From Octopus vulgaris (lineage: Eukaryota), in assembly GCA_951406725.2 (NCBI GenBank), contig OX597822.1, forward strand, positions 17,484,001 to 17,548,000: a DNA stretch of 64,000 nt, written 5' to 3'. Below are positions 43,753 through 61,139 of the stretch, one piece after another. The notes beneath the pieces are model-generated. The model worked only from the letters and a program-made list of their open reading frames with translations. It ran no database searches and was not told the DNA's origin. The first letter of the stretch is position 1. Every line of letters starts with the position of its first letter. The position numbers were made by a program, and so were the translations under genes.

Positions 43753-44159
43753 ACAAGTATGACCTGTTTTGACTGCCAAACTGAGGCAAGTAAACTTACA
43801 TGCCTATATCAGAGCCACAACAAAATGGCTGTTAAAAGGACAGCACTCATGTCTAGGAGATTAATAATGAAACATTGCAACTCCACAGCAATTGCGGCTC
43901 CATATGTATACATATAAATAATTCTCTATTTATATATTTACATGAATATCAGTTAATGAATATTATATTTTCAAATGGCTTTTAGCAAAATATGATCTTA
44001 CATGGCATATTTACAAGTACTTGAAACATAGTTCATAGCACAATCGTAATTTCATATCAAAATAAACAAATTTCAAAGAGATCTAAATTAGTATAACTCC
44101 ATCATATAGCTAAGGATTTTAAAAGGAACACATCATTTTTCATAGTTGGCAAAATGATT

Positions 44160-44259
44160 NNNNNNNNNNNNNNNNNNNNNNNNNNNNNNNNNNNNNNNNN
44201 NNNNNNNNNNNNNNNNNNNNNNNNNNNNNNNNNNNNNNNNNNNNNNNNNNNNNNNNNNN
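44160..44259. other. Assembly gap (100 N)
   Basis: Run of N. Confidence 1.
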
Positions 44260-46610
44260 ACAACTTCATTTATATCTGGAATTGTATCAACAGACTTGCA
44301 AGTGTGTATAGTGCCGGGAAGAGAATGCATTAGCTGTTGATTAATTTTGTTAACAGCGACGTTTTTTGGAGCTAATATTGCTCTTTCACACAGCCAATTG
44401 TGATTTTGGTAGTTTTGTGTCAAGTTGGGAAAGACTTTGTTTTTGAGGTCATCTACAGAATTAACAACAGAGGAAAATGACCACACTTCTATTTGTCCTG
44501 CAGCATCGAGAGGCATCTTGCCTTCACCAAGTGTCAAAATGTCCTGTGCAAACTTTGTGGACATTTTATCGCCATGTAGCTGAGCTCTCATGTTAGTGGT
44601 GAGACTAAAGATTGTAACATGATGCCACAGGGTAGAGGACTTTAGGCATGCTTGGACTTCATCTGCTCTAGTGCCTTTCGGAATGACAGGAAGAGTTTGC
44701 CTGAAATCACCTGACAACAGAAGCGTTACACCTCCCATTGGAGCCTGACAGTCTCGAATGTCTTTCAGGGCTCTATCTAATGCTTCCAAAGCTCCCTTGT
44801 GAGCCATAGTGCACTCATCCCAGACAATTAGAAGATACATTTTAAGTACTTGTCCCTGATCTGAGCTTTTGTTGATGTTGCATGAAGGCATTTCGGATGC
44901 TGCTAAATTGAGAGGGAGTTTAAAAGTCGAGTGTACTGTCCTGCCACCAGGTAACAAAGTAGCTGCAATGCCAGAGGAGGCTACAGCTACTGCAATGTCC
45001 TGATGCTGCCTAACTTCTGCAAGGAGAAGCTTTGTAATAAATGTTTTTCCTGTCCCTCCAGGAGCATCGAGGAAGAAGATTTGTCCCTCGCGTTGGCGTA
45101 CACTGTTAAGAATAGTTCTGTAGGCCTGCAGCTGGTCCGGAAGTAATTTAGGCTCATTTTCAACAATGCACTTTGAAAGCGCTTGAGTGTCGTAGGTAGT
45201 TTCATGAATGACAGCAGTGGGAAGGCTATTTGACCCTGACCTGAATGCTTGTGGCAGGCCATACGTCAACAATTCATTTCCACCCAGTTTAGCAATTCTG
45301 TCTTCAATGTCAATGAGTATTTTGTTATAGATTTCATTGCTGATACCCTCCATGTCAGGATAGAGCAGTTGAGCTTGGCGCTGAAAGTCTTCAGCCAGGT
45401 TGTCTCTATATTTGAGCCATAGAGTGGCCGGATCACACAGTTCGCATGCGTGTAGTAATACTGCAAATAGTGCCCTGAGACTTTTAGGTGATTGTGATAA
45501 AGCAGCCTCTCCTAAAGTTGCATCCCATTGTGCACCATCTTCTAACAGACCTTGTCAATAGCAGGCTTCTCTGTATGTTGTGCAGACATGTCCATGAACA
45601 GTTTTTAGGGCCTGGAAAGATGTTGGCCCTCTGACCTCATGCAGTAGTAGATGAAGGTAGAAGCACTCTTGTTAAGTGGGATGCACTGTGTATACTCGTG
45701 CAAGGCAAGTGTGAAACTTAATGCCAGGGTATCCATGAACATTTTGATCTGCTTTCCGTGGGGCCCATTTTTTTCCATTCCAAGTGTAGTACGATGGAAT
45801 CTGTGGATGTGGATACAGCAAGTGTGCTATCCCTTGGTTCCTCTGCCAACAGAGAAGCATTAGCATCGGTGAAGTACACTCTTTGACCATTTTCCAGGTG
45901 CACTGCAAGCTGTTGAATGGCGGGGTGTCGTTGGTGAATTGGAAAGCCAAAGATGCGCCAGAAAGCCTCGTTGCTACTTATGTACCATCCCACCTGATAA
46001 TGCATCACCTCATCCTGGCAGTATTCTTGTTGAAGTCCAAACATTGCAGCGTCAGAACCCTTGTTTACATATTTGCAAACGTACTTGATGGATTTAACAG
46101 AGTTGCAAAACTCAATGTTGATGTGGGCATTGAAAGTCTTTGACAGGAGTGGGCAGTATGGAACAATCATTCTATTATCAATAGCGTGCTGTCCGATAGT
46201 TACTGTGAAACCTCTGTCTTCTGGTTTTCTGCGTCTGTATGATGGACACCCATCAGCACCTGTCTGAGTTTCTTGTAGGAACCTCCTTGGAAATCTTTTT
46301 GAACATATGCTGTCCTTCAAGCAAGGTGTGTTTATGTTGAATCCACGCCCACATGGACCATGTACCATGTTTGCTTTAACTATTTCCTATAGTTCTTTGC
46401 CTAAAGCTGGATCAGGAAGCTCTGCAGAGATTATCTTAACGAAGTCATTGGAATTGATCTTCGCTGAGAGCCAAAGCAGGATATGAGCATGTGGAAGGCC
46501 CCTTTTTTGCCACTCGATTGTGTACATGTCACATTGTATGGGCCCAAAGACTTGCCCTTTTTGTATGAGCTCCATGAGAGAGATTAACTTCAGATGGAAA
46601 ACTCAGGCGT
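44260..46610 (-). pseudogene. Helitron RepHel (HUH endonuclease + PIF1/SF1 helicase), disrupted
   Basis: Rep motifs IEWQKRGLPHAHILLW, MVHGPCG and IKYVCKYVNKG; linker FYLHLLL..VRGPTSF..EACY*QGLL; helicase motifs FFLDAPGGTGKTF, VASSGIAATLLPGGRTVHS, IVWDECTM, SGDFRQTLPV and RAILAPKN. The helicase frame is open from 45353 to the gap; the Rep part has stops and frameshifts. Confidence 0.95.
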
Positions 46611-56772: not shown

Positions 56773-58284
56773 TAGTAAGAAAAAACTTGTAATTGGTAGT
56801 GTATGATGATTCTTTGCTATAATGTACAAAGATTAATTAATTAAAATTTTTACATGAATACTTTCTTTGTAAATATTCCTAAAATATAACTACACCTGAA
56901 ATATTTGACTATATCTTTTACTGAGACTAATGTCTGAACACTAATCTGATATTTGATTATTACTAGCAAGTTGTACAGTGCCCTTGAGCAAAGAACTTAA
57001 TTTACTGTTGTTCTACTCCATTCAATTGTGATGAGTACCAGATGGATGCTGGTGCAGCCATCTTCCTTACCAGATGCTACATCCTGGACATTCTTTTCAG
57101 ATGAGGGTTAAGGAGTCACATGGGTATTTGTCTGTTGGCACATAAAACAATGAGTGGAATCCTGGTACTTTACCAAGCCATATTAACTCAGAATTGGTGG
57201 CTAGCTGCACTTGTTGATATGCATTAAAGTTAATTTCAATTGAAAGAAAACAAAAAAGGAATAAGCTGTTGGCAAAATATTAAACTAAATAAAACAAAAT
57301 AAAACAGAAATAAGTAGATAAACTTGTGTAATACATGTATACATGTATCTGTATTTATGTCTGTATTAAAAGTTTCAAAGTTTGCCATGACTAAAAGGAA
57401 ATTACTCTTAACGCAAACAATAATGTATTTATTGGCATATGTGTAGATTTATCAGTCATTATGCTAGTGAAGAGTGTGTGTGTGTGTGTGTGCATGCATG
57501 TGTGCACATGCTGGTACAAGTGCATGCAGGCACACAGCTAAAAGCTAAACATTTAGCAGAAATCCATAATATTGTGATGATTAAAAAAGGGAAATATAGT
57601 TCAAATGTTAACCTAATATTTAAGTTCAAATTATGCAACAGAAGCAGCTCAGTAACATAAACATTATTAATACCACATACTAAACATATATGTGTTGTTC
57701 AAGTACCAAGAGCTGCAGTTTTTCCTCCTAGAAAAATCCTGAAAATCCTTTCGAAGACATGTAGTGTTGAAAAACATAATATACTTCAAAGCTAGGCAAA
57801 ATGAAATCACCCCAAAGTGAGGTGCACAATAGAAGGAAAACAAATGACATACAAGTAGTATAAGAATTAACACTGGTAAGTGATGAGCAAGGCATTGAAA
57901 GGAACAAGAATGCATGTGGATTTTATGAAATAAATCATTTTCCCATTATTAATAAATTCAACCATTCAAATAATTATTATTTCATTTTTAAAAAGTGGTG
58001 GCTGTAATTTCCATGATGAGTTTATTTTCAAACATATTGCCTAAAAATATCCTTGATATACACTACCGTCGGAAATTAATTAGCACCCTTGATTTGCTCT
58101 TCACTCAAGGTATGTGCTGTCACCTAGTGGCCATATCTCGAACTATTGCTTTGTTGCGAGTTCACTGTTGCGCAGAACGATGACGTAACTTTGTTTGCAG
58201 AGCGGTTTGAGAGTCTACAGCCTAATGATGTTGACATAGCAGTGCAACAACAACTTGGAGTGCGGATGCAGACAAATCTTCCTT

Positions 58285-58860
58285 TCATCATCATCATTAT
58301 CATCATCATCATCATCATCGTTTAACGTCCGTTTTCCGCGCTAGCACGGGTTGGACGGTTTCGACCGGGGTCTGGGGAGCCAGGGGCTGCCCCAGGCTCC
58401 AGTCTGGTCTGGCAGTGTTTCTACAGCTGGACGCCCTTCCTAACGCCAACCACTCCGCGAGTGTAGTGGGTGCTTTTTACGTGCCACCTGCACAGGTGCC
58501 AGAGGGGTCTGGCATCGGCCACGGTCAGTTGGTGCTTTTTATGTGCCACCTGCACAGAAGCCAGTCGGGGCGGTGCTGGCATCGGCCACGTTCGGATGGT
58601 GCTTTTTATGTGGGGGGAGGGTGCAGAAATATAGGGGAGCACCAGTGAGGAGGGGTGTTCGGAGAAACGATGACAGGTTCTAGACAAGTAGAACGTAGGA
58701 TATCACGAGAGGGGTAATGCATGGTGAAATAGCGTATTGAAGAGGGGGGTTCGAAGAGTAGACACCTATAATGGTGGTGGGAGAAGCGACATCCGGTATA
58801 GATGGAGCAAAAATATAGAGATATCCGGTATTGGTGGTGGGGGTGGGCAAGGGCGGGTGC
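58285..58860 (-). mobile_element. Young RTE-type 3' tail (plus probable pyrimidine-rich 3'UTR) nested in the Tc1 left arm
   Basis: (CAT)n followed by CGTTTAACGTCCGTTTTCC...CAGCTGGACGCCCTTCCTAACGCCAACCAC and three GGTGCTTTTTAYGTG subrepeats. It is the same family as the 34130-35008 and 40330-40646 copies but with CpGs intact. The boundary beyond ~58612 is uncertain. Confidence 0.8.
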
Positions 58861-58865
58861 ACCGG

Positions 58866-59571
58866 GAATATGCGACGGTTGAACTTGACGGGCTGGCTTA
58901 AAAATGCTCTTAGCAATGGAAGGGGGGAAAGGAAGAGGGGGGGAGGGCAGACAACGTAAAAGAGGGAGAGAGAGAGAGAAGGGAATAGTGGAACCCCGCG
59001 AAAATCGGCTGCCATTGAAAAACCCCTGTATGGAGAAACTTAAATATAAATATCTATTCTGTATTTAGCAAGACACAAAGCCGGAAACCGATGGTCAACA
59101 ATAACTAATAAATTATACAGAATATGCAATACGAGGCGAAACTGAAAATAATAATAATAATAATACTAATAAACAAATTGTCGACTGGGGGTCAAAGGGA
59201 TAATACTAATACTAATAATAATAATAATAAACAGCTTAACCACTAGAGATCAGACAAATTTGCATGAGAATATTACTGGTACAGATTACGGGATGAATTA
59301 GATTAGAAAGATTTTCTTATCTTGGGAACATTTCGTTTTTCGGCCTGACACGGCGAATATGCGAAGGTTGAACTTGACGGGCTGGCTTAAAAATGCTCTT
59401 AGCAATGGAAGGGGGAAAGGAAGAGGGGGGGCAGACAACGTAAAAGAGGGAGAGAGAGAGAGAAGGGAATAGTGGAACCCCGCGAAAATCGGCCGCCATT
59501 GAAAAACCCCTGTGTGGAGAAACTTAAATATAAATATCTATTCTGTATTTAGCGAGACACGAAGCCGGAAA
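58866..59571. repeat. Two ~220-bp direct repeats (58866-59087 and 59355-59571) with a 267-bp spacer
   Basis: Both run GAATATGCGA.GGTTGAACTTGACGGGCTGG...GACAC.AAGCCGGAAA, with only a few substitutions and G-run indels. Confidence 0.95.
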
Positions 59572-59722
59572 TTATACAGATATAGGTAGCGCCTCGCAAG
59601 GACCAAAATCACACCATACTAAGTTTTCTCATCGCGTAAGACGTTTTGAACAGCTCGTAGGTTAATTGATTTGTGTATTTGCAAGATTTTTTTTCCTCAC
59701 AAATTCTCCTACACTCTGCTTC

Positions 59723-59739
59723 GTGACGTCACTTCCGGT
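59723..59739 (+). promoter_or_regulatory. Overlapping CRE-ETS promoter motif upstream of the transposase
   Basis: GTGACGTCACTTCCGGT contains a palindromic CRE (TGACGTCA) overlapping an ETS core (rc CCGGAAGT), ~30 bp upstream of a splice donor. Confidence 0.7.
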
Positions 59740-59770
59740 TCACAAAACTTTCTGTTATACATCAAATAAG

Positions 59771-59897
59771 GTGAGAAATTCTGCTTTCTTTCTTTTTTGT
59801 TTAATGAATAATAACTCATAGCAGTTTTGTTATAGCATAACATTATTCAAATGAATAGTTTTAATGAAAATAACTGGTTTTTATCGTTCATTCCTAG
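59771..59897 (+). other. Putative 127-bp 5'UTR intron of the transposase transcript
   Basis: Donor AAG|GTGAGA, AT-rich body, and acceptor TTTTTTATCGTTCATTCCTAG directly abutting the ATG at 59898. Confidence 0.65.
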
Positions 59898-60917
59898 ATG
59901 GGCCCAAGACCTCGCATGACCTTGGAGAGATGGTACGAGGCTCTCTCGTGGTGTGGGAAGCTGTCGGAGGCAGCAATAGCCAGAAAATTTGGTGTAGCCA
60001 GGCGCACAATTCGGTGCTTATTTAAGAAATACGAGGAAACCGGATCAGCAGCTGACAAAAAGGGTAGGGGACGGAAGAGGCTGACGACCCAGCAGGAGGA
60101 CCGGATGCTGATCCGAAAGTCACTGAACAACCGAAGGGCAACGAGCCGGCAACTGGCGGAGGAGATGCAAAAGGTGACAGGGAAGCAGTTGTCTACAACC
60201 ACCGTCAAGACCAGATTACTGGAAGCTGGTCTAAAATCCTGTAGGGCCGCCCGTAAGCCGCTCCTTACAGCCCAAAACCGGAAGAGGCAGCTGCTCTGGG
60301 CCCGTGCCCACAAGACATGGACCATGCAGCAGTGGCGGACAGTGATGTTCACTGACGAGTCACGATTCAGTCTCGTCAGTGACAAGCCTGTCCATGTGCG
60401 ACGCCGCAGGGGTGAGAGCTTCAACAAAGACTGCATTGCTCCCACCATGAAGCATGGTGGGGGTGGTCTGATGGTGTGGGGGGCATTCAGCTACAGTGGT
60501 GTTGGGCGGCTCTATGCCATCGAAGGCAACATCAACGCAGCAAAGTACGTTGAGATAGTACGGAATGCTGCCCTACCCTCTGCGGGATACCTCTTTGGTG
60601 GCGAGGAGTACGTGCTCCAGCAGGACAACGCGTCTCCCCACACAGCCAAGCTCACAACCGGTTTCTTCAAGGACCATGGGGTGACGGTCATGGACTGGCC
60701 TGGCCAGTCACCTGACCTGAACCCTATTGAGAACCTCTGGAGTCGATTGGGTAGGGATTTGAATGTGCAGCAATACAGGAACCGACACGAGCTGTTTGGG
60801 GCACTTCTTGCTGCATGGAGGGCCATCCCTGCACAGTACCTGCAGGCACTCATAGACAGCATGCCGGCCCGCATAGCAGCTGTCATTGCTGCCAAAGGAG
60901 GAGCAACAAGATATTGA
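59898..60917 (+). CDS. Intact Tc1-like transposase, 339 aa (paired-like HTH + DD34E catalytic domain)
   Basis: HTH region (AAIARKFGVARRTI), GRKRLTT (GRPR-like), RKPLL, VMFTDESRF (D), GGGGLMVWGAF, LQQDNASPH (D), WPGQSPDLNPIENLW (E, with 34 residues between it and the second D) and C-terminal AKGGATRY. No stops; AATAAA at 60967-60972. Confidence 0.96.
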   Translation: MGPRPRMTLERWYEALSWCGKLSEAAIARKFGVARRTIRCLFKKYEETGSAADKKGRGRKRLTTQQEDRMLIRKSLNNRRATSRQLAEEMQKVTGKQLSTTTVKTRLLEAGLKSCRAARKPLLTAQNRKRQLLWARAHKTWTMQQWRTVMFTDESRFSLVSDKPVHVRRRRGESFNKDCIAPTMKHGGGGLMVWGAFSYSGVGRLYAIEGNINAAKYVEIVRNAALPSAGYLFGGEEYVLQQDNASPHTAKLTTGFFKDHGVTVMDWPGQSPDLNPIENLWSRLGRDLNVQQYRNRHELFGALLAAWRAIPAQYLQALIDSMPARIAAVIAAKGGATRY

Positions 60918-61139
60918 CTAAATTTCACGATTAATAACAATTATGTGGTATGCTGGGATATGTTTTAATAAATTTTTGATTAAAAACGAGTTCGTTTCTG
61001 ATAATAAGTTAATTAAATTAAGAAAATGTAAGAAAATGTAGAAATTTGAGAAGTGCTAATTAATTTCTGACGCAAGTGTACATGTATGTGTATCTGTGTG
61101 AGTGTTTAAGTATGAGCATGTGAATATGTATATATTTGC

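What the first reader, a model, noticed from the sequence alone, without database searches (positions are those of the whole stretch)
59723..59900. Transposase expression cassette built like a host gene: exact ETS-CRE motif, short non-coding exon, and an intron ending at the ATG
Seen: GTGACGTCACTTCCGGT, then AAG|GTGAGA about 30 bp later, and ...TTCCTAG|ATG. Established: the overlapping motif CCGGAAGTGACGTCA is a proximal-promoter element bound by GABP/ETS and CREB in mammals. Inference: this Tc1 may use a cAMP/CREB-responsive or housekeeping-type promoter and a spliced 5'UTR. That would be an unusual design, could make it portable between hosts, and could link transposase expression to signalling or neuronal activity.
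Basis: partly seen in the sequence, partly recalled or inferred. Interest (0 to 1): 0.7.

Follow-up and report, generated by a model that had tools for sequence, protein, structure and literature searches.

The report
Octopus transposon mimics ribosomal-protein promoter
An octopus jumping gene carries the same 16-letter promoter word as the octopus's own ribosomal protein L10 gene, in a matching layout, so it likely drives its transposase like a housekeeping gene; the splice site just before its start codon works, because in a sister copy it is joined to the first exon of the host gene amphiphysin.

Summary
It lies in a young octopus DD34E Tc1 family.

The exact ETS-CRE 16-mer (59723-59738) is beyond chance: 1 of 20,000 shuffles, and 93 genome hits against 2 control hits. 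Of the 93, 83 are this family and 10 are unique CpG-rich loci. One is the RPL10 gene, with the same orientation, a pyrimidine run at the same offset, and a predicted short exon and intron ending 8 nt before the ATG. An unrelated Tigger-like transposon carries the motif core too.

The AG|ATG acceptor works. In 2 of 6 runs (two studies), amphiphysin exon 1 is spliced in frame onto a sister copy in its intron, predicting a 151-aa fusion with the transposase DNA-binding part.

The element's own donor and start site are not shown: 0 of 4 runs had the 59770-59898 joint, and copies lose the motif by CpG decay. A housekeeping reading fits better than a cAMP or neuronal one. Acceptors abutting transposase ORFs are known; I found no report of an ETS-CRE Tc1 promoter. 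The scan earlier noted a similar fusion (SMARCE1-mariner) on other DNA of this genome.

The parts
58061..61078 (+). Tc1-like DNA transposon copy (about 1.73 kb without the insertion), flanked by TA at 58059-58060 and 61079-61080
58061..58086 (+). left terminal inverted repeat, 26 bp, imperfect match to the right one
58107..58115 (+). second donor-like site AAG|GTATGT near the left end (this variant in 25 of 55 copies); use not shown
58181..58188 (+). second, imperfect CRE-like site TGACGTAA; cut off from the ETS-CRE by the insertion in this copy
58286..59577 (.). 1.29-kb foreign insertion specific to this copy, with internal direct repeats
59723..59738 (.). exact ETS-CRE 16-mer, identical to the one upstream of octopus RPL10
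59739..59770 (+). predicted short non-coding exon, no ATG; candidate start at C59748 (pyrimidine run at the same offset as in RPL10); TATA-like TATACA at 59756-59761
   Evidence: start site inferred
59771..59897 (+). predicted 127-nt 5'UTR intron: GTGAGA donor, T-rich tract, three out-of-frame upstream ATGs (59804, 59851, 59864), branch-like TAAC near 59873, 37-nt AG-free zone, TAG acceptor
   Evidence: acceptor use shown in sister copy L014; donor use not shown
59898..60917 (+). transposase ORF, 339 aa, HTH_Tnp_Tc3_2 + DDE_3, D153-D243-E278 (DD34E)
60967..60972 (+). AATAAA, candidate polyadenylation signal
   Evidence: inferred
61053..61078 (-). right terminal inverted repeat

Best explanation
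This is the 5' control region of a young octopus Tc1 family: its splice acceptor abutting the transposase ATG is used in octopus transcripts of a sister copy, and its ETS-CRE motif likely acts as a constitutive, housekeeping-type promoter that would start a short non-coding exon, which would be spliced onto that ATG. Steps: (1, inferred) ETS and CREB/ATF-type factors bind the overlapping motif when it is unmethylated and start transcription a few bases downstream, as predicted for octopus RPL10. (2, inferred) The 127-nt intron is removed. This deletes three out-of-frame upstream ATGs and changes the start context from TAG-ATG-G to AAG-ATG-G, so translation would depend on splicing. (3, shown) The same acceptor captures host exons when a copy lands in an intron in sense: amphiphysin exon 1 is joined in frame to copy L014. 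(4, decay shown, cause inferred) Most copies have lost parts of the cassette, the motif mainly by CpG decay consistent with methylation. Whether this particular copy is transcribed is unknown.
For: Motif beyond chance. All 10 non-family exact hits lie in CpG-rich unique sequence: 16-36 CpG per 500 bp against a background median of 3 and 90th percentile of 14.5 over 156 tiles; the motif supplies 2. One is RPL10: same 16-mer and orientation, C of a pyrimidine run at the same offset, donor at +43 (Tc1 +32), T-rich intron start (0.60 vs 0.55), ATG 8 nt after the acceptor. Another lies about 270 nt before a THAP-domain ORF on the other strand. An unrelated Tigger-like family (DDE_1) carries the core or a decayed form in 10 of 15 aligned loci, same orientation, 136-175 nt before its ATG in 9 of them and 60 nt in a deleted copy. 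The acceptor is functional: junction contigs in 2 of 6 runs from two studies, host side ending at a genomic GTAAGT donor 31 kb upstream. A strong donor in range is unlikely by chance (155 of 20,000). A distant Tc1 (L282) also has GTAAGT...TTTTTAG|ATG. Literature: 60% of human core 11-mers lie in housekeeping DHS (PMC3464117 passages); upstream GABP sites, a polypyrimidine initiator and an intron between leader and coding sequence typify ribosomal-protein genes (PMC554972 abstract, sections 7-8).
Against: The element's own joint 59770-59898 is listed in 0 of 4 runs. All four instead have contigs that read through the would-be intron unspliced and begin upstream of the motif, as read-through RNA would (contigs cannot prove absence). 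The motif is not better kept than the rest among copies: 17 of 30 have the 15-mer, 18 of 30 the donor, 27 of 30 TAG|ATG, 10 of 30 all three; motif CpGs decay at 10% against 5.5% in the ORF. The candidate initiator fits only 6 of 10 positions of the ribosomal-protein consensus (RPL10 fits 9 of 10), and the offset match was noticed after the fact and rests on one gene. RPL10's own start and first intron are predicted from sequence. The design is not general: no ETS-CRE in 19 loci of 6 other octopus Tc1 families, no AG|ATG in the 5 of those families inspected, AG|ATG in 0 of 43 and 1 of 21 distant relatives. The shorter 13-mer is only 311 against 129 control hits, and 11 of 40 sampled hits were codons of a Penelope-like ORF. 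No binding or promoter activity was measured.
Confidence: 0.6

Rival explanations
1. The motif is a promoter relic from the founder element or an earlier host and is silent in octopus now. The family is transcribed only by read-through from host genes, and the acceptor serves as an exon trap.
For: All family contigs seen are unspliced read-through or host-exon chimeras. Motif CpGs decay freely. Most copies are broken: 2 of 119 scored candidates have 339 codons without a stop. Transposase GC3 is 0.63 against 0.45-0.47 in two RPL10 exons, a weak hint of foreign origin.
Against: The identical motif sits at octopus host gene starts, so octopus likely reads it. The family amplified recently (1.15% mean non-CpG divergence) and needed transposase. 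A pure trap does not explain a matching donor 127 nt upstream. This reading does not exclude the design, only its present use.
Confidence: 0.18
2. It is a signal-inducible CRE/TATA promoter: TATACA or TATAAA at 59756-59761 is a TATA box, transcription starts near 59786 inside the supposed intron, and cAMP or neuronal activity induces it.
For: Perfect CRE plus a second CRE-like site. TATAAA in 6 of 55 copies, one clade that includes three copies with no stop codon (L036, L037, L039). CRE/TATA promoters are the activity-induced class in mouse neurons (PMC5740062 passages). Tc1-like RNAs are neural in Xenopus (PMC3144230 passages).
Against: 49 of 55 copies, including this one, lack the canonical TATAAA. 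This start would leave three out-of-frame ATGs in the leader, two overlapping the main ATG, and leaves the donor unexplained. The one verified co-oriented host analogue is a ribosomal-protein gene.
Confidence: 0.17
3. The motif and the donor are chance matches in a transposon leader, fixed in the founder and copied passively.
For: All copies descend from one founder, so 83 hits count as one event. The motif was picked after the fact. Short cores do arise by chance, for example in Penelope-like coding sequence.
Against: 1 of 20,000 shuffles for the 11-mer, and the element has the full 16-mer. A second, unrelated DNA transposon family has the core at a similar place. The acceptor is demonstrably real.
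Confidence: 0.05

Closest known systems
Host-transposase fusion by transposon-supplied acceptor (KRABINER, SETMAR, CSB-PGBD3; Cosby et al., bioRxiv 10.1101/2020.05.07.082677, passages read)
   Same: [quoted passage not shown]
   Different: Mollusc rather than tetrapod; very young family; the host part is the amphiphysin N-terminus (recalled as a membrane-binding helix), not a chromatin domain; no evidence of selection or of protein.
Mammalian ETS-CRE composite element bound by GABPA and CREB1 (PMC3464117 abstract and passages; PMC4555227 passages)
   Same: Exact 16-mer with the precise overlap needed for cooperative binding; found at CpG-rich host loci in octopus too.
   Different: Here inside a DNA transposon, which supplies 83 of the 93 exact 15-mers in the genome; binding by octopus factors untested.
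Ribosomal-protein gene promoter design (PMC554972 abstract and sections 7-8; PMC8047918 passages); octopus RPL10
   Same: Upstream GABP-type site, pyrimidine run, short non-coding first exon, intron before the coding sequence; same motif and offset as octopus RPL10.
   Different: Initiator fits 6 of 10 consensus positions, with purines at -2 and -1; ATG abuts the acceptor; start site unmapped.
'Blurry' Tc1/mariner promoters (Bari, Sleeping Beauty, Hsmar1; PMC6446368 passages)
   Same: Promoter predicted between the left TIR and the ATG; proposed link to portability between hosts.
   Different: Those are AT-rich with weak motifs, and the paper's main text has no occurrence of intron, splicing or CREB; this one has a sharp, CpG-containing composite site and splice signals.

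Membership tests
Tc1 (DD34E) transposons | TA target duplication and terminal inverted repeats | tested here: met
   TA flanks, 26-bp imperfect TIRs
Tc1 (DD34E) transposons | paired-like HTH plus DDE domain with DD34E spacing | tested here: met
   (PF01498, PF13358 over cut-off); invariant D153, D243, E278
ETS-CRE composite promoter element | exact overlap (C/G)CGGAAGTGACGTCAC | tested here: met
ETS-CRE composite promoter element | located at a transcription start in unmethylated, open chromatin | tested here: inconclusive
   host hits are CpG-rich and one precedes RPL10; no start site for the element; copies show CpG decay
ETS-CRE composite promoter element | cooperative binding by ETS and bZIP proteins | not testable with these tools
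   needs EMSA or CUT&Tag in octopus
Ribosomal-protein (TCT / 5'TOP) promoter | initiator (Y)2C+1TY(T)2(Y)3 | tested here: not met
   6 of 10 positions at C59748 against 9 of 10 for RPL10; it resembles this class but is not filed as a member
Ribosomal-protein (TCT / 5'TOP) promoter | upstream GABP-type site | tested here: met
Ribosomal-protein (TCT / 5'TOP) promoter | intron separating the non-coding leader from the coding sequence | tested here: inconclusive
   acceptor used; own donor joint in 0 of 4 runs
cAMP/activity-inducible CRE/TATA promoter | full CRE with a canonical TATA box close downstream | tested here: not met
   CRE present; TATACA in this copy, TATAAA in 6 of 55 copies
cAMP/activity-inducible CRE/TATA promoter | induction by cAMP or depolarisation | not testable with these tools
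   needs a reporter or stimulated-tissue RNA
Host-transposase fusion gene (amphiphysin-Tc1 at L014) | in-frame spliced junction using the transposon's own acceptor, beside the parental transcript | tested here: met
   27 codons, phase 0, onto a 124-codon open frame; 2 of 6 runs
Host-transposase fusion gene (amphiphysin-Tc1 at L014) | purifying selection on the captured domain | tested here: inconclusive
   frame is open, but so are the first 120 codons in 22 of 30 copies; too young to test
Host-transposase fusion gene (amphiphysin-Tc1 at L014) | stable mRNA and protein product | not testable with these tools
   only a 60-nt junction contig and, in X5, the copy's deletion joint were seen
Blurry Tc1/mariner promoter | AT-rich, no sharp motifs | tested here: not met
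   sharp 16-mer in a 39% GC stretch

The most novel reading that the evidence does not exclude
Octopus DNA transposons have converged on the host's ETS-CRE housekeeping module. This Tc1 copies the ribosomal-protein gene design closely enough that its mRNA starts with a pyrimidine tract, needs splicing to be translated, and is tuned to cell growth like ribosomal-protein mRNAs. Its acceptor has already created a common amphiphysin isoform that joins a membrane-binding N-terminus to a transposase DNA-binding domain.
Probability: 0.15. Interest if true: 0.75.

Novelty: new variant of a known kind. Interest (0 to 1): 0.5.

Why it matters
How DNA transposons get expressed in new hosts is open, and the current model for Tc1/mariner is a motif-poor 'blurry' promoter. 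A sharp, methylation-sensitive housekeeping site shared with a ribosomal-protein gene, plus a spliced leader, is a different and directly testable strategy. It would also explain why acceptors sit right before transposase ORFs. The family has spread at least 83 exact copies of the motif and many acceptors through the octopus genome. One acceptor diverts part of amphiphysin splicing, which offers a host-transposase fusion at its earliest stage. The cassette is also a compact candidate promoter for cephalopod transgenesis.

Tried and rejected
No RNA holder was listed on record (kinds are guesses). The four runs laid on the host exon were spliced there, with no cover in the intron.

The native joint was absent in contigs of 4 runs; contigs drop rare forms.

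Within-family conservation as a test of function was rejected, because copies evolve neutrally after insertion.

Selection against the donor was rejected: the G-to-A change at 59770 is mostly one clade (7 of 10), and G-to-A changes recur at many other sites.

The 110-nt gap before the ATG in Tigger-like copy L237 looked like intron loss, but it is a deletion between TGTG repeats with no AG.

A CTCF-like site at 58119-58130 (consensus recalled) is not above chance: 38 of 100 shuffles.

The Pfam BAR search missed the C4 gene and exon 1 alone had no PDB hit; exon 2 identified the gene.

Viral contigs held no relative. Of 80 metagenome and 46 genome-contig loci, 37 and 25 were dropped for lacking the 5' end or an in-frame ATG.

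Predicted octopus gene models that join host exons to this ATG (P0025, P0035) were not counted as evidence. No annotated amphiphysin fusion appeared among 4 short hits.

Literature searches (listings only) showed no paper on an ETS-CRE or TCT-type Tc1 promoter or on an octopus amphiphysin-transposase chimera. Subscription papers and Repbase were not searchable, and the Cosby preprint's supplements are closed and may list comparable leaders.

Look-ups in earlier scan notes by sequence and by words found nothing.

Full report
Observation. The ATG opens an uninterrupted 339-aa frame with Pfam HTH_Tnp_Tc3_2 and DDE_3 and a D153-D243-E278 triad. The element runs 58061-61078 between 26-bp imperfect inverted repeats and TA dinucleotides. 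This copy carries a 1.29-kb insertion at 58286-59577 that 29 of 29 sisters lack. The nearest named proteins are from Octopus vulgaris, and the nearest proteins outside the family are at most 50% identical. Fifty-five aligned copies differ from the majority by 1.15% at non-CpG sites, so the family is young. Most copies are broken: 2 of 119 scored candidates have 339 codons without a stop. The deepest family contigs in four runs are a short derivative that skips 59673-61034 and so lacks the motif.

Is the motif chance? The 11-mer core appears in 1 of 20,000 shuffles of a sister's 552-nt leader. The exact 15-mer has 93 genome hits against 2 for the reversed control. Of these, 83 belong to this family: 27 of the first 30 by alignment, 46 assigned by eye from coordinates, and 10 of 17 fetched. 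The 83 descend from one founder and count as one event. The other 10 are unique and all CpG-rich: 16-36 CpG per 500 bp against a background median of 3.

One of the 10 is the start of RPL10 (Pfam Ribosomal_L16 exons downstream). It has the same 16-mer in the same orientation and the C of a pyrimidine run at the same offset. It also has a donor at +43 (Tc1 +32), a T-rich intron start, and an ATG 8 nt after the predicted acceptor. Another hit precedes a THAP-domain ORF on the opposite strand. An unrelated Tigger-like transposon has the core, or a decayed form, in 10 of 15 aligned loci, 3 of them exact, in the same orientation before its ATG and next to an RFX-like box (label recalled). The looser 13-mer is less specific: 311 against 129 control hits. 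Of 40 hits sampled from the first 100 listed, 11 were codons of a Penelope-like ORF (likeness recalled) and 5 belonged to another repeat.

Do the splice sites work? The acceptor does. In runs X5 and X8 (two studies, two coded organisms) a contig breaks off exactly before 59898 and continues with the same 30 foreign letters. These map once in the genome, to C4:17334481-17334510, and are followed there by GTAAGT. Laid on that exon, all four runs show splicing to a normal second exon. X8 and X5 also hold the 60-nt junction to the transposase ATG, at mean word depths of 17.2 and 13.2 against 48.9 and 30.9 for the normal joint (a crude measure). The second exon lies 65.5 kb downstream and matches amphiphysin (1uru, E 3e-6).

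Sister copy L014 sits in that intron in sense, 31 kb from exon 1. It has lost the catalytic part and the element's AATAAA but keeps a 124-codon open frame with the HTH region. X5 also shows L014's deletion joint and one of its alleles at a similar depth. Exon 1 has 27 codons and a phase-0 donor, so a 151-aa fusion is predicted. The junction was seen in 2 of 6 runs laid. The open frame is no sign of selection, since 22 of 30 copies are open over the first 120 codons. The nearest AATAAA is about 1 kb past the stop (after correcting an offset in the printout), so the RNA may be unstable.

The element's own donor and start are not shown. The joint 59770-59898 is listed in 0 of 4 runs. Contigs cross the region unspliced and begin upstream of the motif, as expected for read-through of many dead copies. 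Indirect support: a MAG|GTRAG donor in range occurs in 155 of 20,000 shuffles. The interval is 25% GC with a branch-like TAAC and a 37-nt AG-free zone, and it holds three out-of-frame ATGs that splicing would remove while placing A at -3 of the start codon (Kozak rule recalled). Among 29 protein-selected copies plus this one, 17 keep the 15-mer, 18 the donor, 27 TAG|ATG and 10 all three. Motif CpGs decay at 10% against 5.5% in the ORF. This is neutral decay and neither supports nor refutes the founder's design.

How general? Not very. Six other octopus Tc1 families (19 loci) lack the motif, and the five inspected lack AG|ATG. Among distant relatives with an assignable ATG, AG|ATG occurs in 0 of 43 and 1 of 21. 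That one, L282, has a 92-nt GTAAGT...AG interval and no ETS-CRE.

Mechanism. Most likely (0.6) the founder element used the motif as a constitutive promoter and a spliced leader to make transposase, and the same acceptor traps host exons. In human, 60% of core 11-mers lie in housekeeping DHS, and CpG methylation inhibits ETS and CREB binding (PMC3464117, abstract and passages); binding is cooperative only at this overlap (PMC4555227, passages). Ribosomal-protein genes typically have upstream GABP sites, a polypyrimidine initiator and an intron before the coding part (PMC554972, abstract and sections 7-8; PMC8047918, passages). The Tc1 initiator candidate fits 6 of 10 consensus positions, so it resembles that class without being a member. 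The cAMP reading needs a TATA box (PMC5740062, passages); TATAAA occurs in 6 of 55 copies and not here. It stays a rival at 0.17. A silent relic with only exon-trap activity is at 0.18 and chance at 0.05.

Comparison and novelty. Acceptors immediately upstream of transposase ORFs and their capture of host exons are known (8 of 9 cases; Cosby et al., passages). In zebrafish embryos 95% of DNA-transposon transcripts are multi-exonic (PMC12006353, passages). Described Tc1/mariner promoters are motif-poor (PMC6446368, passages). Seven literature searches (listings only) showed no ETS-CRE Tc1 promoter and no octopus amphiphysin chimera. An earlier scan note describes a SMARCE1-mariner fusion elsewhere in this genome (unchecked). 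Verdict: new variant of a known kind, interest 0.5.

Noticed in passing
G000:C4:17334481-17334561 (L031) joined to L014 (C4, about 17303200): Amphiphysin exon 1 is spliced in frame onto a Tc1 copy in intron 1 in 2 of 6 runs, at roughly a quarter to a third of the exon's joint depth; predicted 151-aa fusion with the transposase DNA-binding part.
   Followed up: yes
G000:C23:29127445 (L217, L223): Octopus RPL10 has the exact ETS-CRE 16-mer 9 nt before a TCT-like run and a predicted short non-coding first exon.
   Followed up: yes
L235, L237, L315-L333: Tigger/pogo-like DNA transposon family with an RFX-like box directly followed by the ETS-CRE core, about 95 nt inside its left end.
   Followed up: partly
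window 59672 joined to 61035: The most abundant family form in all four runs is a short internally deleted derivative (MITE-like) that lacks motif and ORF.
   Followed up: no
window 58286-59577: 1.29-kb insertion inside this copy, starting with a CAT microsatellite and holding a duplicated block of about 230 bp; part matches a repeat seen beside other loci; identity not determined.
   Followed up: no
L081, L232, L242/L243, L246: ETS-CRE motif or core near other apparent host gene starts: a THAP-domain ORF (Pfam), an ATG 19 nt downstream, and caspase-like and RILP-like ORFs (likeness recalled, untested).
   Followed up: partly
L251, L252, L253, L261, L262: A repeat of about 1.1 kb with direct terminal repeats of about 185 bp that carries the ETS-CRE core internally; type unknown.
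   Followed up: no
L282:320-412: A distant Tc1 on a contig filed in a bacterial MAG (likely eukaryotic contamination) has a 92-nt GT...AG interval ending at the ATG, without ETS-CRE.
   Followed up: partly
window 44136-45554 (-): 473-codon open frame with a PIF1-like helicase domain, likely a Helitron fragment.
   Followed up: no
proteins P0025, P0035, P0174: Predicted octopus gene models combine host sequence (ASC channel, a repeat protein, SEFIR) with this transposase; in P0025 and P0035 the join falls exactly at its ATG. No RNA support was checked.
   Followed up: partly
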